From: Candidatus Uhrbacteria bacterium
Lineage (GTDB): Bacteria; Patescibacteriota; Patescibacteriia; JACQRZ01
Direction: 5' to 3'
Assembly (NCBI GenBank): GCA_016188385.1
Contig: JACPHV010000030.1
Location: forward strand, 1 to 46,608
DNA length: 46,608 nt
Shown piece by piece: positions 36,727-43,330 of the stretch. The translations under genes were made by a program, and so were the position numbers. The notes beneath the pieces were generated by a model, which did not search any database, was not told the origin of the DNA, and saw nothing but the letters and a program-made list of their open reading frames with translations. Within the stretch, counting starts at the first letter, position 1. Every line of letters starts with the position of its first letter.

Positions 36727-38676
36727 TTATGTTCGAGACTTCCGAGTTCTTTTTTCAACAATAGTACGTATCGCGTCACGAAGCAAAATCGCTTTTTCAA
36801 AATCCAGACGCTCAACAGCCGCGCGCATCTCCTCTTGCAGCGCGACGAGATTCTTTCGCGCGTCAGATTTCACCGACTCCACGATTTCTCCCGGCAAAAA
36901 GGATGTTTCCACTTTTTTCTTGATACTTGCGGGAGTAATGCCATACTCCTTGTTATATTGTATCTGGATCGCTCGGCGCCTCTCGGTCTCCTCGATCGCT
37001 TTTTTCAATGACCCTGTCATGGTATCCGCGTACATCACCACGCGCCCATCCGCATGACGCGACGCGCGCCCGATCGTCTGTATCAAACTTGTCGCATTCC
37101 GCAAAAACCCTTCTTTGTCCGCATCCAATATCGCAACAAGCTCTACCTCCGGTATATCAAGACCTTCACGCAATAAGTTAATACCGACCAAGACATCATA
37201 CACGCCGAGCCGAAGATCTTTGATCAATGCCGCGCGGTCGATGGTATCAATCTCACTGTGCAGATAACGCGCTTTCACGTCATGCTCGGTAAGATATTCA
37301 GAAAGCTCTTCGGCGGAACGCTTCGTCAACGTGGTTACAAGCACGCGACTTCCCTTTCGTACTGTTACCGCTATTTCAGAACACAGGTCGGCAATGTACC
37401 CTTTGATCGGTCTTACCGTGACAGTCGGATCCAATAAGCCCGTAGGGCGAACAACCTGTTCGACTACTTGGCCGCTGCTTTGGGTCTCATACGAATCCGG
37501 CGTCGCGCTCACGAATATCGTATGATCGAGATAGGATTCAAATTCCGGGAATGTCAGCGGACGATTATCATACGCGGAAGGAAGGCGAAAACCATAATCC
37601 ACGAGATTCCTTTTTCGCGCATAATCGCCGCGGTGCATACCCTGTATTTGCGGGATGGTGGCATGACTCTCATCTATGCAAATCAAAAATTCCTTGGAAA
37701 AAGGATTGGAACGAAAAAAATCAAGCAAACAAAAAGGCGGTTTACCCATCGGACGTCCGTCAAAGTGCCGGGAATAATTTTCGATACCCTTGCAGTATCC
37801 AAGCTGTTCAATCATCTCTAAATCGTACTGCGTCCTCTGCTCCAAACGATGCGCCTCCAGCATTCCGAGTTGCGGCAAACGCGTACGGAGTTCCTCACGA
37901 ATTGACGAAATTGCCGATTTCCGCTTTTCCTCGGGAGCCACAAACGGCTTTGCGGGATAGATATGCGCGATCTGTGTTTTTGATGTTTCATCGAGTGAAA
38001 TCGGATCTAACAACGCGATTGACTCAACTTCATCGTCAAAAAATTCAAAACGATATATGTCGCCGCCAAATCCCTGCATGACATCTACCGTATCGCCGCG
38101 AACGCGAAAGCGTCCCGCGCGAAGTTCGGTATCATTGCGCTCATATAACGCGTCAACAAGTTTGGAAAGAAATGCGTGGCGTCCGATACGGTCTGCCTGC
38201 GATATGGTAATCTTGCTTTCCATAAAATCATGCGGACTTCCGAGACCATAGATACATGATACCGAAGCGATCACAATGACATCGGGACGGCTTACGAGAG
38301 AGGCCGCGGCTTCCATCCGCAACTGTTCGATTCTCTCGTTGATTTGAGTCTCTTTTTCTATGTAGGTATCGGTCTGTGGAAGATAGCTTTCCGGAAGATA
38401 ATAATCATAGTAGGAAACGAAATAGCATACTTTATTTTTAGGAAAAAAATTGCGGAACTCCGTGTAGAGTTGTGCCGCAAGCGTTTTATTATGCGCAATA
38501 ACGATAGTGGGTATCTGCAGCTGCTCGATCACGCAAGACAGTGTGTATGTTTTACCGGAACCGGTAATTCCGAGAAGTGTTTGCCGATCAAAGCGATGAA
38601 AGCCATCCGTTAACGATCGGATGGCTTTCGGCTGATCCCCCGCCGGTTTGAATTGAGAAACGAGTTTGAATTTCAT
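36727..38676 (-). CDS. uvrB: Excinuclease ABC subunit B
   Basis: PAGDQPKAI, GITGSGKT, YYDYYLPE, DESH, QTIGRASR, C-terminal UVR motif. Confidence 0.98.
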   Translation of the reverse strand: MKFKLVSQFKPAGDQPKAIRSLTDGFHRFDRQTLLGITGSGKTYTLSCVIEQLQIPTIVIAHNKTLAAQLYTEFRNFFPKNKVCYFVSYYDYYLPESYLPQTDTYIEKETQINERIEQLRMEAAASLVSRPDVIVIASVSCIYGLGSPHDFMESKITISQADRIGRHAFLSKLVDALYERNDTELRAGRFRVRGDTVDVMQGFGGDIYRFEFFDDEVESIALLDPISLDETSKTQIAHIYPAKPFVAPEEKRKSAISSIREELRTRLPQLGMLEAHRLEQRTQYDLEMIEQLGYCKGIENYSRHFDGRPMGKPPFCLLDFFRSNPFSKEFLICIDESHATIPQIQGMHRGDYARKRNLVDYGFRLPSAYDNRPLTFPEFESYLDHTIFVSATPDSYETQSSGQVVEQVVRPTGLLDPTVTVRPIKGYIADLCSEIAVTVRKGSRVLVTTLTKRSAEELSEYLTEHDVKARYLHSEIDTIDRAALIKDLRLGVYDVLVGINLLREGLDIPEVELVAILDADKEGFLRNATSLIQTIGRASRHADGRVVMYADTMTGSLKKAIEETERRRAIQIQYNKEYGITPASIKKKVETSFLPGEIVESVKSDARKNLVALQEEMRAAVERLDFEKAILLRDAIRTIVEKRTRKSRT

Positions 38677-38706: not shown

Positions 38707-39498
38707 CTATCTATGGCGCGAGTTCAATGGTTGGGCGATCGTCATGATATTCTTTCCATTCCACCAACGCGCGCGTACTCCGTCTCGAATGTAATATGAT
38801 CGTTTTATCGTATATCCGGCTTCATGGAGCAATGAACGCAATGCGCGGACCGTGTATGCGTGATAATAAAGGTGTCCTTTCACGCCTTCGCTTTTCCATT
38901 CCGTAATGATATCATTGATGCCAAGATCAAAATGGGAAATGCCATACTCCTTTTCCCATGGCAACAGCGCGAAAGATAACCTCCTGCTCAAACCGCTCCA
39001 TGCAGTCTTTGGCCCCTTGTCCAATCGCCAGAGATTCCAATTCTCCATGCAGAGCAAACCATTCGGCAAGAGAAATTGCCGCGCTCTCTTTAAGGCAGCA
39101 AGCGCTTGGCGGCGGCGGGGAATATGATGAAACGACGCGACCATGAATATCGCATGAAATTTTTTACCGCGCAATTCCTGAATATGGTCGAGGGAGAGAA
39201 TATCTCCAACGATAAATCGCGGCTCGAGCGGATGCGCGTGATATGCCGTTTCAGCTCGCGCGATGAGCGAACGGGAAGCATCGATCCCGACATACGCGAT
39301 GCTTTTGTGGGCTAGATAAGAAAAAAGCCGTCCGTTTCCGCAACCGATGTCAAGCACGCTATCACCTTCTTTGACAGACGAGTCAAACACGGTAAAATCA
39401 TTCCAGTGCTTCCGGCGTGTTCGATCAAATTGATCCGCGATCCGTTCGTACCCTTCGCGGGTCATGACGGTAAGCGCGTGAGCTGTATGCGGCTTCAT
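38707..39498 (-). CDS. Class I SAM methyltransferase, Trm9/ALKBH8-like (candidate tRNA cm5U34 methyltransferase)
   Basis: YERIADQFDRTRRKHW, VLDIGCGNGR, ASFHHIP, DIITEW, YYHAY. Confidence 0.8.
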   Translation of the reverse strand: MKPHTAHALTVMTREGYERIADQFDRTRRKHWNDFTVFDSSVKEGDSVLDIGCGNGRLFSYLAHKSIAYVGIDASRSLIARAETAYHAHPLEPRFIVGDILSLDHIQELRGKKFHAIFMVASFHHIPRRRQALAALKRARQFLLPNGLLCMENWNLWRLDKGPKTAWSGLSRRLSFALLPWEKEYGISHFDLGINDIITEWKSEGVKGHLYYHAYTVRALRSLLHEAGYTIKRSYYIRDGVRARWWNGKNIMTIAQPLNSRHR

Positions 39499-41187
39499 AT
39501 GAAACAATCACTTAAAGAATCTTCAGCTTCTATCATAGAACGCTTGGTGTCGCAAGGCAATTTTGACAGTGATGCTTTGCATTCGGCGAAGCGGGAATTT
39601 TCCGCAGCCACGAGCATACCCTTTCCGACAAACACGGAACTGCTCGCTGTGTATCGAGGACTTGTTGCCGAGCATACAATCGATTCCCATTCGGAGCTGG
39701 AACGGCTGTTGACGGTCAAACCGATACGATCCCTGTCAGGCGTTGCCATTGTCACGCTGCTGACTATGCCGTATCCGTGCCCGGGAAAATGCATCTACTG
39801 TCCTGATGAAGCACGGATGCCGAAAAGCTATATCGAGACGGAGCCTGCCGCGGCGCGAGCGCTTCGCCTGCAGTTTGATCCGTATGTCCAGACCGCGAAA
39901 CGCATATCCATGCTTGAGGGCAACGGACACCCGGCGGATAAAATTGAGTTGATCATCAAGGGCGGGACATGGTCTTCCTACCCGCCGCCATACCAGCAAT
40001 GGTTTATCAAAGAATGTTTTCGCGCGATGAACCATGCCGCCGATGGCTGTGAGACGATTCGTACCGCCGATGCGCATAATCCTTTTAATCGATTCGAGTC
40101 GACAGAGAAAGCCTCATGGGATGTGCGGACGCTTTTTGAACAACAAGCAATAAATGAAACTGCCGCGCATCGCTGCATAGGACTCACGATTGAGACAAGA
40201 CCTGACTTTATCAGTCCCCGAGAAATTAAACGCCTGCGTATGTTGAGCGTCACTCGCGTGGAACTCGGCGTACAGACGACTGACGATACAATTTTGGAGA
40301 CAATCAAACGGGGACATACTGCCGATACTGTCGTACGGGCGACAAAACTTCTCAAGGACGCGGGTTTCAAAGTGGATTTTCATCTCATGCCAGGATTGCC
40401 GGGAGCGACTCCGAAAAGCGATCTTGCGGACGCTCGAAAGATATTTTTTTCCGCCGATTTCGGACCCGATACCGTCAAATTGTATCCTACCGTGGTAACT
40501 CCGAATACCGTACTGGAAGAATGGTGGAAACAAGGACGGTATGAGCCGTATGACACGCAGACTGTCATTGAATTGCTTGCCTCCATCAAAGCAATCGTAC
40601 CGCCTTATGTTCGTCTGTCCCGTGTGATACGGGATATTCCTTCTGATAATATCTCTGCCGGTAATAAAGTGACAAACCTGCGGGAGGTCGTGCATGAATA
40701 TATGAAAAAACGGAATATGCGGTGCCGCTGTTTGCGGTGTCGGGAAACCGGACATCAAAACGATTCAACATTGAATGGCCGCTTATCAGAAATCACATAT
40801 AAGGAGCGATCCTATGCCGCTTCGGGAGGAATGGAATATTTTTTGAGTTATGAAAGTAAGGATGAATCGATCCTCTATGCGTTTCTGCGACTGCGGCTCC
40901 CGTCGAATGACGGGGAGCGAATTCATCATCTTCTGCCAGAGCTTCGCCGCGCCGCGCTTGTCCGTGAACTTCATACGTATGGACAGCTTGTTCGAATACA
41001 TGCAAAGGATGAAGAATCAACCCAGCACAAGGGATTGGGGAAAAAACTCCTTGAACGCGCAACGACAATCGCGACAGAAAACGGACTTACCAGGATCGCC
41101 GTCATTTCCGGCATTGGCGTACGGGAATATTACCGTCGCGCAGGCTATCGCCTCGAAGGAACTTACATGGTTAAAGCGCTCAATTGA
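39499..41187 (+). CDS. elp3: Elp3 family radical SAM/KAT tRNA U34 carboxymethylase
   Basis: RSLSGVA, CPGKCIYCP, MPKSY, GGTW, IETRPD, VELGVQ, RVIRDIP, CRCLRCRE, RELHTYG, QHKGLG, GVREYY; start at MKQSLK. Confidence 0.95.
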   Translation: MKQSLKESSASIIERLVSQGNFDSDALHSAKREFSAATSIPFPTNTELLAVYRGLVAEHTIDSHSELERLLTVKPIRSLSGVAIVTLLTMPYPCPGKCIYCPDEARMPKSYIETEPAAARALRLQFDPYVQTAKRISMLEGNGHPADKIELIIKGGTWSSYPPPYQQWFIKECFRAMNHAADGCETIRTADAHNPFNRFESTEKASWDVRTLFEQQAINETAAHRCIGLTIETRPDFISPREIKRLRMLSVTRVELGVQTTDDTILETIKRGHTADTVVRATKLLKDAGFKVDFHLMPGLPGATPKSDLADARKIFFSADFGPDTVKLYPTVVTPNTVLEEWWKQGRYEPYDTQTVIELLASIKAIVPPYVRLSRVIRDIPSDNISAGNKVTNLREVVHEYMKKRNMRCRCLRCRETGHQNDSTLNGRLSEITYKERSYAASGGMEYFLSYESKDESILYAFLRLRLPSNDGERIHHLLPELRRAALVRELHTYGQLVRIHAKDEESTQHKGLGKKLLERATTIATENGLTRIAVISGIGVREYYRRAGYRLEGTYMVKALN

Positions 41188-43330
41188 CGTTCTCGGGAAA
41201 TAATTGCGTTGCCGGAATAATCTCTTCGATCTGCCGTATCCCGCGCGTCCATTTCAGTTGAATTCCCGCAAACGCGATATCCTCAAAGTAATCAAGACGG
41301 ATCGGGTAGCGCTTCCCCGCTTCCAGATATATGCTGCCTGTCGTTCTTTTCATTGGATGCTTTCTCCAATCATCGATTAATTTGGCATTATTCACCCAAA
41401 GGCGGACACCATCGTCAGAATCAATGATAAAAGTATACCGATCGCTCTGACGCGCCTCGATGTATCCTGCCCACCTCACGGAAAACAGATTCGGGTCCAT
41501 CCCCGGAATAGGCGGCCCGTATGCCCAGCGGAAATCGACCACGGGATCGACACGCGTTACTTTCAGGTTGCTGAAATCATGAGAATCGAAATACATGGCA
41601 GTCAAGCCCGTCCCTCTCGAAACTCGCTCTTCAATTGGCGGAACAATACCGCTCAAATCATCCAAAGCATCTTGCAGCGAAAGGCTTGTATCGCCTTGCA
41701 AAAAACGGGCAATCGCGCTTTTTGTCGATCCGGTGATGGGAAAACCGCGCCGTTCGTAATACCACGCGAGATCGGCATTGGCATTGATGCTTAAGAGAAA
41801 AACAAAAATGTTGATTTTTTTGTTTCGCAAATCTTCGGAATCACTCGCGGCAAGTAATGCATCGGGAACATATTTCCATGTGGTAAGAAAATCTATGGTC
41901 GTACGCAATGCTTTCAAGAACTCCTTATCTTGCTTCACGCTCTTGCGATCTTGAAATATCTGGAGCGTGACGGCGGTAAAAAGATCGGATCCGAGGGTGC
42001 TGTTTTTTGTCGAATGAGTCGGATACAACGATGCTGTATTCACGCGCAACGGCACTGTGCTGCTGATCGGCAAACGGTTCTGTTGAAGCGACGCATGTTG
42101 ATCAGTCGAGGTGATCACATTGGCGCAGGTGGCGGGCTTGGCTAGATATCCGCACCACGCGTTCCACCATCCGAAACGTTTCTCTCCTTTCTGCATCTCC
42201 AGATACGAAGCGACTCCGATCAAATCGGAAAAACTTTTTATCATGGAGTCATGCCAAAGAAACACATTCCGCTGCGGCGCGCGAGCGAGGAATACCTCAC
42301 TAAGCGCTCTCGCGTACGAAACGGCGAAAGGACGGGCGGGATGATTTACCGTATGGACAAGATCGGTACGCACCATGGGAGAGGGAACTCGCACCGTCTG
42401 CGAGTACGGATCGATCGTAATCTTGCGTATCCGGTTGTCATCAATGACGACGATCCGTTTTCCTCCAAGATCATAGTTCAAATAATCACTCAAAAAAACA
42501 ACAAGGTCCTCATACCGTGCCAACGCAGGCAATGGGTCTGTCCGAAACCGAGCAAGCGTCGCTTGCGTGAAGTGCCATTCGATCGATCCGCATCTGACAC
42601 TGCGTTGCCGCATCAGTTGGGAATAGCTTCGATCGCATGAAGCGCGCGCATGCTGCGAAGGTGCGGATACGGCAGGTTGAACGCCATCGGAAAAATCCGA
42701 TTTTGGTATTAGCAAAGAAATCGGTTCTCGCACGGCAATATACAGGCTCTTGAGATCGGCTTGTTGCCCGTCTGTATTCCAGCATCGTAACGTGACAACG
42801 GAAGGATAAGGAATACTGATTTCAGCTGACCCCGACGGTTGTTTGAGGCCGACCCATTCGGGTATTGTGCCGCCTCCATGGCAAGCAAACGCGTTAACGC
42901 TGTCCCACTGCACGAGTACGCGCTCTGTTTTTAAAACTGATGTCCGATCACTGAGAAAGGTAACTGCGGGCAATGGCAAAGATTCATCCTGGTCATTCGG
43001 GTGTACTACTACGGTGCGCGTCTGCGGCGCTGACGCGAGACCTTCGGGACTCGTACAGGTAAGAGAGTAGGAATAATATCCCGTATTAAGTACGATCGTA
43101 CGCTGGCCTTGCTTCGGGAGGCGTTCTTCAGTGTCGAATGAACCTATGCAAAAAGATGCCGCGGGAGCATTCCAGTCAAGCGTTACCGGAGTGCCGGCGA
43201 TCGCAACATTTGGAAAGATGCCATAGTAAACTGTCGAGCCGCCTTCCTGCGCGAAAAGCTGGCTCGATAAAACAAAAGTTGACAGAGCACATACAAAAAT
43301 TGTTGCAAAAAGAGTGCGCATAGACAGCAA
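41180..43330 (-). CDS. Secreted/surface protein with a C-terminal PA14 domain
   Basis: Signal peptide; two Cys-containing beta repeats; GLTAMYF...RVDPVVDFRW...FSVRWAG...SDDGVRLWVN...IRLDYFE. Confidence 0.88.
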   Translation of the reverse strand: MLSMRTLFATIFVCALSTFVLSSQLFAQEGGSTVYYGIFPNVAIAGTPVTLDWNAPAASFCIGSFDTEERLPKQGQRTIVLNTGYYSYSLTCTSPEGLASAPQTRTVVVHPNDQDESLPLPAVTFLSDRTSVLKTERVLVQWDSVNAFACHGGGTIPEWVGLKQPSGSAEISIPYPSVVTLRCWNTDGQQADLKSLYIAVREPISLLIPKSDFSDGVQPAVSAPSQHARASCDRSYSQLMRQRSVRCGSIEWHFTQATLARFRTDPLPALARYEDLVVFLSDYLNYDLGGKRIVVIDDNRIRKITIDPYSQTVRVPSPMVRTDLVHTVNHPARPFAVSYARALSEVFLARAPQRNVFLWHDSMIKSFSDLIGVASYLEMQKGEKRFGWWNAWCGYLAKPATCANVITSTDQHASLQQNRLPISSTVPLRVNTASLYPTHSTKNSTLGSDLFTAVTLQIFQDRKSVKQDKEFLKALRTTIDFLTTWKYVPDALLAASDSEDLRNKKINIFVFLLSINANADLAWYYERRGFPITGSTKSAIARFLQGDTSLSLQDALDDLSGIVPPIEERVSRGTGLTAMYFDSHDFSNLKVTRVDPVVDFRWAYGPPIPGMDPNLFSVRWAGYIEARQSDRYTFIIDSDDGVRLWVNNAKLIDDWRKHPMKRTTGSIYLEAGKRYPIRLDYFEDIAFAGIQLKWTRGIRQIEEIIPATQLFPENVN

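What the first reader, a model, noticed from the sequence alone, without database searches (positions are those of the whole stretch)
38707..41187. Elp3 plus Trm9-like methyltransferase: candidate bacterial mcm5U34 tRNA wobble-modification system
Seen: a full Elp3 (radical SAM CxxxCxxC, Zn-type CRCLRC, KAT motifs) directly adjacent to a SAM methyltransferase. The methyltransferase carries Trm9/ALKBH8-type features as I recall them: Y..IA..F..TR...W, D.GCGNG, an HH motif, D....W and YYH.Y. Known: in eukaryotes Elp3 makes cm5U34 and Trm9/ALKBH8 (with Trm112) methylates it to mcm5U, archaea have homologs of both, and typical bacteria use MnmE/MnmG instead. Inference: this bacterium encodes the two consecutive steps of the eukaryote/archaea-type pathway as a linked gene pair, possibly without Trm112 (none seen in the window). 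To my knowledge mcm5U formation is not established in bacteria.
Basis: partly seen in the sequence, partly recalled or inferred. Interest (0 to 1): 0.8.

Follow-up and report, generated by a model that had tools for sequence, protein, structure and literature searches.

The report
Bacterial Elp3 paired with Trm9-like methyltransferase
A tiny groundwater bacterium carries, head to head, the two enzymes that eukaryotes and some archaea use to decorate the wobble uridine of tRNA, and the same pair recurs across its relatives, which suggests that these bacteria make a tRNA modification so far documented only outside bacteria.

Summary
Both genes are real. The + strand gene is a full Elp3 (TIGR01211, 573.6 bits, cut-off 350). 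The neighbour on the - strand is a class I SAM methyltransferase. The two are divergent, with start codons back to back, so they are not an operon.

A profile of the methyltransferase family hits yeast-type Trm9 (5cm2_Z) first in the PDB. A profile of its C-terminal, non-SAM half hits only Trm9 significantly. The Trm9 residues shown essential by mutagenesis (R29, D72, H116, W145, W168, Y243) are conserved. R241 is Leu in this protein and Arg in 35 of 68 relatives.

Among 61 genomes of the class, 36 have both genes, 1 has only Elp3, 3 have only the methyltransferase and 21 have neither. The pair is head to head in 29 of those 36. Across 80 loci from other Patescibacteria, 56 show the same arrangement.

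The genome has MnmA and the U34 tRNAs, but no MnmG, no MnmE above cut-off and no Trm112.

Best reading: Elp3 makes cm5U34 and a Trm112-independent Trm9-like enzyme methylates it to mcm5(s2)U. This is inferred, not shown biochemically. I found no paper on it.

The parts
39487..41187 (+). elp3 gene. Start is ATG 39487 (566 aa) or ATG 39499 (562 aa); the longest ORF begins at GTG 39406.
   Evidence: TIGR01211 ELP3 573.6 bits, cut-off 350, model positions 3-522 of 522. Best PDB relative is 5l7j, an ELP3 family chain, at 441 bits. Pfam Radical_SAM and Radical_SAM_C are over cut-off; Acetyltransf_1 (18.6 bits, cut-off 20.7) and ELP3_N (16.2, cut-off 27) are below cut-off.
38707..39498 (-). Trm9-like class I SAM methyltransferase gene (263 aa from ATG 39498; the longest ORF reaches TTG 39507).
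   Evidence: Pfam gives only generic Methyltransf_25/23/11/12. Family profile A1 against the PDB: Trm9 5cm2_Z is first at 94.3 bits. C-terminal profile A2: Trm9 is the only significant hit. AF2 model has mean pLDDT 94.5.
39496..39501 (.). CATATG palindrome that holds the methyltransferase ATG (- strand, 39498..39496) and an Elp3 ATG (+ strand, 39499..39501). The start codons are back to back with no intergenic spacer.
   Evidence: Read directly from the sequence. M4 of the methyltransferase ORF is nearly invariant in A1.
39778..39801 (+). Radical SAM cluster motif CPGKCIYC (CxxxCxxC) of Elp3.
40723..40740 (+). CRCLRC, three Cys of the linker Zn site described for bacterial and archaeal Elp3.
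   Evidence: Motif. Description of the Zn motif comes from passages of PMC6367351.
41023..41040 (+). QHKGLG, the acetyl-CoA binding motif (QxxGxG) of the KAT/GNAT domain. The motif name is my recall.
   Evidence: Acetyltransf_1 matches residues 538-581 at 18.6 bits, below the 20.7 cut-off.
39403..39450 (-). N-terminal motif YERIADQFDRTRRKHW. R31 aligns with YlTrm9 R40 (ScTrm9 R29). Y20 lies 11 residues before it, as Y29 does before R40 in YlTrm9.
   Evidence: Alignment to 5cm2_Z. Conservation: R31 68 of 68, W35 68 of 68, Y20 66 of 68. Residue roles from PMC4678810 passages.
39331..39351 (-). SAM-binding motif I, DIGCGNG.
   Evidence: G55, C56 and G57 are invariant in A1.
39118..39132 (-). FHHIP. 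H127/H128 align with the Trm9 HH pair (Sc H115/H116).
   Evidence: alignment. H128 is His in 67 of 68 and H127 in 45 of 68. H116A is inactive and H115A only mildly affected.
39028..39042 (-). NWNLW. W157 aligns with Trm9 W156 (Sc W145).
   Evidence: W157 is Trp in 68 of 68. W145A is inactive.
38896..38913 (-). DIITEW. W204 aligns with Trm9 W179 (Sc W168).
   Evidence: W204 is Trp in 67 of 68. W168A is inactive.
38854..38871 (-). LYYHAY, aligned with Trm9 RYYH. Position 213 is Leu here where Trm9 has R192 (Sc R241). Y215 aligns with Sc Y243.
   Evidence: Position 213 is R in 35 of 68 and L in 33 of 68; Y214 is Tyr in 67 of 68 and Y215 in 57 of 68.
38746..38760 (-). NGKNI. N253 is invariant and may be the counterpart of Trm9 N222 (Sc N271).
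   Evidence: N253 is Asn in 68 of 68. HMMER's alignments stop before this residue, so the mapping is not settled.
39371..39398 (+). Promoter-like site TTGACA-16-TAAAAT (11 of 12), about 90-100 nt upstream of the Elp3 start and inside the methyltransferase coding sequence.
   Evidence: Consensus scan only. The region gave 5 sites against 3.8 +/- 2.1 in shuffles, so this is not evidence of function.
39532..39560 (-). Promoter-like site TTGCCT-17-TATGAT (9 of 12), about 34 nt upstream of the methyltransferase start and inside the Elp3 coding sequence.
   Evidence: Consensus scan only.

Best explanation
The pair encodes a two-step bacterial version of the Elongator-type wobble-uridine pathway.

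Step 1. Elp3 (radical SAM domain plus acetyl-CoA-binding KAT domain) works alone and attaches a carboxymethyl group to C5 of U34, giving cm5U.

Step 2. The divergently transcribed neighbour is a Trm9 homologue. It uses SAM to methyl-esterify that carboxylate, giving mcm5U, and it does so without the Trm112 partner that all characterised Trm9 enzymes need.

Step 3. The genome also has MnmA, so the Lys, Glu and Gln tRNAs probably end as mcm5s2U.

The likely substrates are the U34 tRNAs of split codon boxes found in the genome: Lys-UUU, Glu-UUC, Gln-UUG, Arg-UCU and Leu-UAA.

Shown here: the identity of Elp3, the homology and active-site conservation of the methyltransferase, the gene linkage, and the absence of MnmG and Trm112. 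Inferred: both catalytic activities, the tRNA targets and the final nucleoside.
For: Elp3 identity:
- TIGR01211 573.6 bits against a cut-off of 350, full length.
- PDB hits to bacterial, archaeal and eukaryotic Elp3 at 321-441 bits.
- The Cys and KAT motifs are present.

Methyltransferase identity:
- Profile of 68 family members against 177,635 PDB sequences: Trm9 5cm2_Z is rank 1 (94.3 bits, E 6e-26). The next hits are 3sm3 at 87.5 and 1ve3 at 81.6.
- Profile of the C-terminal half only (52 sequences): Trm9 at E 2.6e-5; the next best is E 0.86.
- Residues whose Ala mutants are zymocin-resistant in ScTrm9 (PMC4678810 passages), with conservation: R29 = R31 (68/68), D72 = D76 (68/68), H116 = H128 (67/68), W145 = W157 (68/68), W168 = W204 (67/68), Y243 = Y215 (57/68).
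- JGI names 4 of the 120 listed homologues TRM9 or ALKBH8.

Linkage:
- Of 61 class genomes, 36 have both genes, 1 has Elp3 only, 3 have the methyltransferase only and 21 have neither.
- The pair is head to head in 29 of those 36.
- Of 80 loci from other species, 56 are divergent-adjacent, 1 is co-directional and 2 lie within 4 kb.
- 10 of the 16 loci without a nearby Elp3 were tested, and all 10 genomes have Elp3 elsewhere.
- One of the 3 methyltransferase-only genomes carries an in-frame TAA in the gene.

Genome context (100% complete):
- No MnmG.
- MnmE model hits only at 90 and 74 bits against a cut-off of 252.6.
- No Trm112.
- MnmA at 382 bits, cut-off 237.
- The U34 tRNAs are present.

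Precedent: Elp3 and Trm9 genes cluster in Sulfolobus (PMC6144793 and PMC5372719 passages).
Against: - No biochemical or nucleoside data exist for any of these organisms.
- This protein has Leu at the position of ScTrm9 R241. The R241A mutant keeps about 1% of specific activity (26 against 2105). 33 of 68 family members share the Leu.
- Alone, the protein ranks Trm9 only ninth in the PDB (27.2 bits). Its C-terminal half alone finds nothing.
- Foldseek ranks Trm9 eighth, although with the highest target TM of 0.81.
- The lead of Trm9 over 3sm3 in the full profile search is only about 7 bits.
- All characterised Trm9 enzymes need Trm112. It is absent here and over cut-off in only 3 of 61 relatives.
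- One genome has Elp3 without the methyltransferase (G018). Three have the methyltransferase without Elp3: G007, G011 at a contig edge, and G022 with a stop.
- One of the 36 (G051) scores only 99.4 bits. It was counted because it covers profile positions 1-220.
- No tree with named Trm9, ALKBH8 or archaeal Trm9 sequences was built.
- The search among longer proteins found no ALKBH8.
Confidence: 0.68

Rival explanations
1. The methyltransferase is a Trm9 homologue coupled to Elp3, but it does not make plain mcm5U. The Leu-type subfamily found in this genome has lost the Arg that contacts the cm5U carboxylate and has gained a helical insertion of about 12 residues. It may therefore act on a different Elp3-derived intermediate or on a different atom, or it may be much less active.
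For: Position 213 is Leu in 33 of 68 family members and Arg in 35 of 68. The Leu type carries an insertion (window residues about 179-190, with W184 and Y188 conserved) that is absent from the Arg type. Median lengths are 257 and 238 aa. R241A in ScTrm9 lowers specific activity about 80-fold.
Against: All other mapped active-site residues are kept in the Leu type, and both types sit head to head with Elp3. In the Trm9 model R29 is proposed as the main carboxylate-positioning Arg, and its counterpart R31 is invariant.
Confidence: 0.17
2. The methyltransferase has a target unrelated to Elp3's product, such as another tRNA or rRNA position, a protein or a small molecule. On this view the conserved head-to-head arrangement reflects only a shared regulatory region.
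For: Pfam and NCBIfam give only generic class I methyltransferase matches, none above a specific family cut-off. Foldseek does not single out Trm9. Three genomes keep the methyltransferase without Elp3.
Against: The non-SAM half matches only Trm9 in the PDB. The Trm9 substrate-binding residues are conserved. Co-occurrence holds even where the genes are apart: 7 of the 36 class genomes, and 10 of 10 tested genomes from the wider set. One of the three Elp3-less copies has an in-frame stop.
Confidence: 0.1
3. The pair is a relative of the bacterial MnmL/MnmM (YtqA/YtqB) system, or of another MnmEG-dependent mnm5U route, and not an Elongator-type route.
For: The radical SAM part of Elp3 also matches TIGR01212 (MnmL/YtqA) at 83.6 bits. 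From my recall, ytqA and ytqB also form a radical SAM plus class I methyltransferase gene pair.
Against: The TIGR01212 score is far below its cut-off of 180, whereas TIGR01211 is met over its full length including the KAT domain. MnmG, which supplies the substrate of that route, is over cut-off in 0 of 61 class genomes. No chain named MnmM is among the 60 listed PDB matches of the family profile.
Confidence: 0.03

Closest known systems
Eukaryotic Elongator (Elp3) with Trm9-Trm112 (yeast) or the ALKBH8-TRMT112 methyltransferase domain: mcm5U/mcm5s2U34 synthesis
   Same: The same two enzyme families are present in the same presumed order. Elp3 has rSAM and KAT domains. The methyltransferase keeps the counterparts of Trm9 R29, D72, H115/H116, W145, W168 and Y243.
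   Different: There is no Trm112 and no Elp1/2/4/5/6 here. The counterpart of R241 is Leu in this protein. The genes are linked head to head. Thiolation would come from bacterial MnmA and not from the eukaryotic Ncs6/Urm1 route (pathway named from recall).
Archaeal Elp3 with Trm9-Trm112 (Haloferax volcanii HVO_1032; Elp3-Trm9 gene cluster in Sulfolobus solfataricus)
   Same: Elp3 stands alone without the other Elongator subunits. Elp3 and Trm9 genes cluster (PMC6144793 and PMC5372719 passages).
   Different: Archaeal Trm9 is a Trm112 partner. The 2017 review found archaeal Trm9 orthologues only in Sulfolobales and Halobacteriales, whereas this family is spread across Patescibacteria.
Dehalococcoides mccartyi Elp3 (PDB 5l7j), the studied bacterial Elp3
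   Same: It is the best PDB match of the window's Elp3 (441 bits). It is a stand-alone bacterial Elp3 with the three-Cys Zn motif.
   Different: DmcElp3 has a shortened N-terminus. The window's Elp3 has about 90-95 residues, counted from its likely start codon, before the rSAM cluster, with a weak ELP3_N match. The passages I read name no downstream methyltransferase for Dehalococcoides and state that direct evidence for xcm5U there is lacking.
Bacterial MnmE/MnmG (plus MnmC or MnmM) cmnm5U/mnm5U34 pathway
   Same: It serves the same tRNA position and probably the same decoding purpose. MnmA thiolation is shared.
   Different: The enzymes and chemistry are unrelated. MnmG is over cut-off in 0 of 61 genomes of the class, and MnmE is not over cut-off in this genome.
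CmoA/CmoB/CmoM, the bacterial mcmo5U34 methyl-ester route
   Same: A class I methyltransferase methyl-esterifies a carboxyl group hanging from C5 of U34 (from recall).
   Different: The side chain and its synthesis are different. CmoB models match the window methyltransferase only through the SAM core (30.5 bits against a cut-off of 209).

Membership tests
Elp3 (TIGR01211) | Full-length match above the curated cut-off | tested here: met
   573.6 bits against a cut-off of 350, model positions 3-522 of 522.
Elp3 (TIGR01211) | Radical SAM CxxxCxxC cluster motif | tested here: met
   CPGKCIYC at residues 125-132. Pfam Radical_SAM 56.8 bits.
Elp3 (TIGR01211) | C-terminal KAT/GNAT domain with an acetyl-CoA motif | tested here: met
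   QHKGLG at residues 540-545. The TIGR01211 match runs to the C-terminus. Pfam Acetyltransf_1 alone is below cut-off (18.6 against 20.7).
Elp3 (TIGR01211) | Three-Cys Zn site of bacterial and archaeal Elp3 | tested here: met
   CRCLRC at residues 440-445. Feature described in PMC6367351 passages.
Elp3 (TIGR01211) | cm5U34 formation on tRNA | not testable with these tools
   Needs an enzyme assay or nucleoside mass spectrometry.
Trm9 / ALKBH8 methyltransferase domain | Class I SAM methyltransferase core with the SAM-binding Asp (Sc D72) | tested here: met
   Methyltransf_25/11 match. D76 aligns with D83 of YlTrm9 and is Asp in 68 of 68.
Trm9 / ALKBH8 methyltransferase domain | Substrate and catalytic residues R29, H116, W145, W168, Y243 (Sc numbering; Ala mutants zymocin-resistant) | tested here: met
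   R31, H128, W157, W204 and Y215 align with them. They are kept in 68, 67, 68, 67 and 57 of 68 relatives. Mutant data.
Trm9 / ALKBH8 methyltransferase domain | Arg of the RYYH strand (Sc R241) | tested here: not met
   It is Leu213 in the window protein. Across the family it is R in 35 of 68 and L in 33 of 68.
Trm9 / ALKBH8 methyltransferase domain | Asn that recognises the uracil ring (Sc N271) | tested here: inconclusive
   An invariant Asn (N253, 68 of 68) lies near the C-terminus, but HMMER's alignments to 5cm2_Z stop before it.
Trm9 / ALKBH8 methyltransferase domain | Closer to Trm9 than to any other solved methyltransferase, also outside the SAM core | tested here: met
   Full profile: Trm9 is rank 1 at 94.3 bits against 87.5 for the next. 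C-terminal profile: Trm9 at E 2.6e-5 against 0.86 for the next. Single-sequence searches and Foldseek did not discriminate.
Trm9 / ALKBH8 methyltransferase domain | Obligate Trm112 partner | tested here: not met
   PF03966 has no match in the 100%-complete genome. It is over cut-off in 3 of 61 class genomes.
Trm9 / ALKBH8 methyltransferase domain | Occurs together with Elp3 | tested here: met
   36 of the 39 methyltransferase-positive genomes among 61 have Elp3. 59 of 80 loci have Elp3 within 4 kb. 10 of 10 tested genomes without a nearby Elp3 have it elsewhere.
Trm9 / ALKBH8 methyltransferase domain | Branches within the Trm9 clade in a tree with named eukaryotic and archaeal Trm9 | not tested
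Trm9 / ALKBH8 methyltransferase domain | Methylates cm5U34 to mcm5U34 | not testable with these tools
   Needs an enzyme assay or nucleoside mass spectrometry.
MnmL/YtqA radical SAM (TIGR01212) with MnmM | Match above the family cut-off, with MnmEG present to supply the substrate | tested here: not met
   TIGR01212 scores 83.6 bits against a cut-off of 180. MnmG is over cut-off in 0 of 61 genomes.

The most novel reading that the evidence does not exclude
Patescibacteria (the Candidate Phyla Radiation) as a group make mcm5U/mcm5s2U34 with a minimal two-gene module: a stand-alone Elp3 and a Trm112-independent Trm9. mcm5U would then exist in bacteria, and the Elp3-Trm9 pathway would not be confined to archaea and eukaryotes. 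Because MnmEG is lacking from the whole class searched, the relatives without Elp3 may carry no C5 side chain on U34 at all. Atlas leads point to similar methyltransferases in Chloroflexota, the phylum of the studied bacterial Elp3, and in Asgard archaea. The module may therefore link these lineages.
Probability: 0.55. Interest if true: 0.72.

Novelty: new variant of a known kind. Interest (0 to 1): 0.62.

Why it matters
- **State of the literature.** In the passages I read, mcm5U-type wobble modification is treated as eukaryotic and archaeal. A 2017 review states that no bacterial genes resemble the eukaryotic Trm112-partner methyltransferases. A 2020 review says direct evidence for xcm5U in bacteria is lacking.
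- **A concrete candidate.** A conserved Elp3 plus Trm9-like pair across a huge bacterial radiation that lacks MnmG gives a testable candidate for bacterial mcm5(s2)U.
- **A Trm112-free enzyme.** A natural Trm9 without Trm112 would help separate catalysis from the activating role of Trm112.
- **Translation in reduced genomes.** The pair shows how ultra-small genomes keep wobble decoding with two genes in place of MnmE, MnmG and MnmC.
- **Annotation.** It would also correct the current generic label: NCBI names on listed homologues read "class I SAM-dependent methyltransferase".

Tried and rejected
**Searches that did not discriminate**
- A single-sequence PDB search with the whole methyltransferase ranked Trm9 ninth at 27.2 bits.
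- The C-terminal 118 residues alone gave no significant PDB match; the best hits were E 0.83 and 1.1, both unrelated proteins.
- Foldseek against the PDB ranked Trm9 eighth. All top hits are class I methyltransferases, so the fold does not discriminate.

**Searches for fused or longer forms**
- The search among longer proteins found no ALKBH8-type protein and no fusion with Elp3 or Trm112 among 54 hits. There was one 542-aa fusion, P0121, with PF03808. The tool warns that this is weak evidence.

- It was not built.

**Atlas search**
- It gave only generically named clusters, from Chloroflexota, several Patescibacteria phyla and Promethearchaeota. I treat these as leads only.

**Alternative rejected**
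- The MnmL/MnmM reading was considered and rejected.

**Expression**
- No RNA holder was listed. The four holders are DNA runs of groundwater metagenomes from one study.

- The pdb_via library was not on the machine.
- PMC5018218 (Elp3 from Dehalococcoides) is not held. Whether that paper discusses a downstream methyltransferase is unknown to me.
- Supplementary files were not consulted. Supplementary alignments of PMC4678810 and PMC6144793 may bear on bacterial homologues and on residue mapping.

**Literature searches behind "not found in print"**
-.
- Trm9 with Patescibacteria: 0 papers. Trm9 with Candidate Phyla Radiation: 0 papers.
- Elp3 with Patescibacteria: 3 papers held, 2 listed. I opened one; its two Elp3 passages concern an archaeal Thorarchaeia gene cluster. 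The other listed title is a plant polysaccharide review and was not opened.

**How the papers were seen**
- All cited papers were seen only as passages from "find" calls or as search listings.

Full report
**What is there**

The window is contig C5 of a 1,035,094-base genome in 46 contigs, rated 100% complete with 0.39% contamination. Names on the records of the nearest homologues are Candidatus Uhrbacteria and other Patescibacteria.

At the finding's coordinates lie two ORFs: 38707..39507 on the - strand (266 aa) and 39406..41187 on the + strand (593 aa). They are divergent. The longest ORFs overlap, but the likely starts abut.
- The methyltransferase Met at ORF residue 4 is nearly invariant in the family alignment. 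It is also the start of the 263-aa stored forms. This places its ATG at 39498..39496.
- Elp3 has ATGs at 39487 and 39499. The TIGR01211 match begins at ORF residue 44.
- The sequence there is a CATATG palindrome, so the two start codons stand back to back.
- Promoter-like hexamers lie inside each other's coding sequence. The scan found 5 sites against 3.8 +/- 2.1 in shuffles, so this says little.

**The + strand gene is Elp3**

- TIGR01211 gives 573.6 bits (cut-off 350) over model positions 3-522 of 522.
- Pfam finds Radical_SAM and Radical_SAM_C. It also finds the GNAT domain and ELP3_N below cut-off.
- The best solved relatives are ELP3 family chains: 5l7j at 441 bits and 6ia8 at 421 bits, then eukaryotic Elongator Elp3 at 321-346 bits.
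The three-Cys Zn site is described for bacterial and archaeal Elp3 in PMC6367351 (passages).

**The - strand gene is a Trm9-like methyltransferase**

Family libraries give only generic class I methyltransferase matches. A single-sequence PDB search ranks Trm9 ninth.

I collected homologues: 170 at E <= 0.001, of which 120 were listed. Nearly all that carry a name come from Patescibacteria. JGI names 4 of the 120 TRM9 or ALKBH8, and the other named ones carry generic names. I aligned 68 of them, counting the window protein (A1).

The A1 profile, searched against 177,635 distinct PDB sequences, puts Yarrowia Trm9 (5cm2_Z) first at 94.3 bits (E 6e-26). Two uncharacterised archaeal methyltransferases follow at 87.5 and 81.6 bits. 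That margin is small, and the solved chain lacks the N-terminal 38 residues.

I therefore built a second profile from the C-terminal half only. It starts 8 residues before the WNLW motif and so leaves out the SAM-binding motifs.
- It uses 51 of the 80 loci plus the window.
- 29 loci were left out. In 22 my motif search failed, 5 failed the length filter, and 2 were mis-anchored and dropped by hand.
- Trm9 is its only significant PDB match (E 2.6e-5). The next are E 0.86 and worse.

**Active site**

Létoquart et al. 2015 (PMC4678810, passages) mutated conserved ScTrm9 residues.
- D72A, H116A, W145A and W168A were inactive.
- R29A, R241A, Y243A and N271A lost at least ten-fold in activity.
- H115A was mildly affected.

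Through the HMMER alignment to 5cm2_Z these map to the window protein as follows (counts):

| ScTrm9 residue | Window residue | Conservation in the 68 sequences |
|---|---|---|
| R29 | R31 | 68 |
| D72 | D76 | 68 |
| H115 | H127 | 45 |
| H116 | H128 | 67 |
| W145 | W157 | 68 |
| W168 | W204 | 67 |
| R241 | position 213 | R 35, L 33; Leu in this protein |
| Y243 | Y215 | 57 |

Two further points:
- Y20 (66 of 68) lies 11 residues before R31, as Y29 does before R40 in YlTrm9. The paper places that Tyr near the cm5U carboxylate.
- An invariant Asn (N253) may be the counterpart of N271, but the alignments stop before it.

The Leu-type sequences are the window's closest relatives. They carry an insertion of about 12 residues that the Arg type lacks. 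The AF2 model is confident (pLDDT 94.5). Foldseek ranks Trm9 eighth among many class I methyltransferases, with the highest target TM of 0.81, so fold alone does not discriminate.

**Linkage with Elp3: the 61 genomes of the class**

In the 61 genomes of the same class, own genome included, Elp3 is over cut-off in 35. It is present as fragments in 2 more (G006 and G057).

The methyltransferase profile gives a clear two-level picture.
- Full-length matches score 139-300 bits in 38 genomes.
- One borderline case scores 99.4 bits and covers profile positions 1-220 (G051).
- Generic methyltransferases score at most 98 bits and match only the SAM core.

Counting G051, the table is:

| Genes present | Genomes |
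|---|---|
| Both | 36 |
| Elp3 only | 1 (G018) |
| Methyltransferase only | 3 (G007; G011 at a contig edge; G022 with an in-frame TAA) |
| Neither | 21 |

In 29 of the 36 the genes are head to head, with under 1 kb between match edges. In 3 they are 3-5 kb apart on one contig. In 4 they are on different contigs.

**Linkage with Elp3: 80 loci from other species**

In 80 loci from other species found with the family pattern, Elp3 is placed as follows:

| Position of Elp3 | Loci |
|---|---|
| Divergent and adjacent | 56 |
| Co-directional | 1 |
| Within 4 kb | 2 |
| Not in the flanks, with at least 1.8 kb upstream | 16 |
| Not assessable because the flank is too short | 5 |

Ten of those 16 genomes were searched and all ten hold Elp3 over cut-off elsewhere. 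These genomes are kin, so the counts are not independent events. Even so, the association spans many named candidate phyla.

**Rest of the pathway in this genome**

- MnmG: no match, and over cut-off in 0 of 61 class genomes.
- MnmE: only two sub-cut-off GTPase-domain matches in one 463-aa frame (90 and 74 bits, cut-off 252.6). I read this as another GTPase.
- Trm112: no match. It is over cut-off in 3 of 61 class genomes, each inside a 350-390-aa frame.
- MnmA: present at 382 bits (cut-off 237).
- tRNAs: ARAGORN finds 40. They include Lys-UUU, Glu-UUC, Gln-UUG, Arg-UCU and Leu-UAA. Gly-UCC was not found.

**Mechanism proposed**

Elp3 alone forms cm5U34 from acetyl-CoA and SAM. This has been shown for archaeal Elp3 in vitro according to PMC7663514 and PMC5372719 (passages). 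The Trm9-like enzyme then methyl-esterifies it to mcm5U without Trm112. MnmA adds the 2-thio group on the Lys, Glu and Gln tRNAs. The enzyme identities, the active-site conservation and the linkage are shown here. The activities, substrates and products are inferred.

**Comparison with what is known**

- The pathway itself is the known eukaryotic and archaeal one.
- Elp3-Trm9 clustering is described for Sulfolobus.
- Bacterial Elp3 is known. It was called "one specific clade, Dehalococcoides" in 2020 and "numerous bacteria" in 2026.

What I did not find in print is a bacterial Trm9 or an Elp3-Trm9 pair in Patescibacteria. The 2017 review states that no bacterial genes resemble the eukaryotic Trm112-partner methyltransferases.

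I file the methyltransferase as a Trm9 homologue that works like Trm9. It is a Trm112-independent bacterial variant, and in this genome it is an R241-less one. It is not a plain member of the family.

**Verdict**

It is a new variant of a known system and is directly testable. Interest is moderate to high.

Noticed in passing
G000 contig C42, complement 72093-72169 (outside the window): ARAGORN calls a tRNA-Ile with anticodon UAU and only one CAU tRNA in the genome. The TilS model gives only a 23-bit sub-cut-off match. AUA may therefore be read by a U34 tRNA and not by a lysidine tRNA. Whether Elp3 touches this tRNA is unknown.
   Followed up: partly
61 genomes of the class (G000-G060): MnmG is over cut-off in 0 of 61. 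24 of the 61 also lack Elp3. Those genomes show no known route to any C5 side chain on U34.
   Followed up: partly
G022:C19:24051-24731 (-): The Trm9-like gene carries one in-frame TAA in a 99%-complete genome that has no Elp3. This looks like decay after loss of the partner.
   Followed up: no
G053:C3:39260-39895; G026:C75:2239-4035; G065:C88:1715-2932: In-frame TGA codons occur in the methyltransferase (2, in G053) and in Elp3 (1 each, in G026 and G065). Possible causes are sequencing errors, pseudogenes or a different reading of TGA. None was examined.
   Followed up: no
window 38854-38871 and about 38938-38973 (- strand; methyltransferase residues 213 and about 179-190): The family splits evenly into an Arg type (35) and a Leu type (33) at the Trm9 R241 position. 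The Leu type carries a 12-residue insertion with a conserved Trp and Tyr. In most Leu-type members, but not in this protein, a Lys or Arg sits just before D199.
   Followed up: partly
window 36727-38676 (-): A 649-aa ORF starts 30 nt downstream of the methyltransferase stop on the same strand. I read it as UvrB-like from its sequence; no family search was run. This neighbourhood is shared with only 1 of 80 related loci (L033), so it is not a conserved part of the module.
   Followed up: partly
G051:C4:186969-187112; G032:C41:6279-6419; G043:C7:33902-34042: Trm112-like domains over cut-off occur in 3 of 61 relatives, each inside an open frame of 350-390 aa. These may be Trm112 fusions. G051 and G043 also have the Elp3-methyltransferase pair.
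   Followed up: no
P0121 (542 aa): One longer protein matches the whole family profile (223 bits) and also carries PF03808. It is a fusion of unknown meaning.
   Followed up: no
window 41180-43330 (-): A 716-aa ORF converges on the Elp3 stop and overlaps it by 8 nt. It has an N-terminal hydrophobic stretch. By eye the C-terminal region looks like a PA14-type carbohydrate-binding domain; this was not checked with any tool.
   Followed up: no
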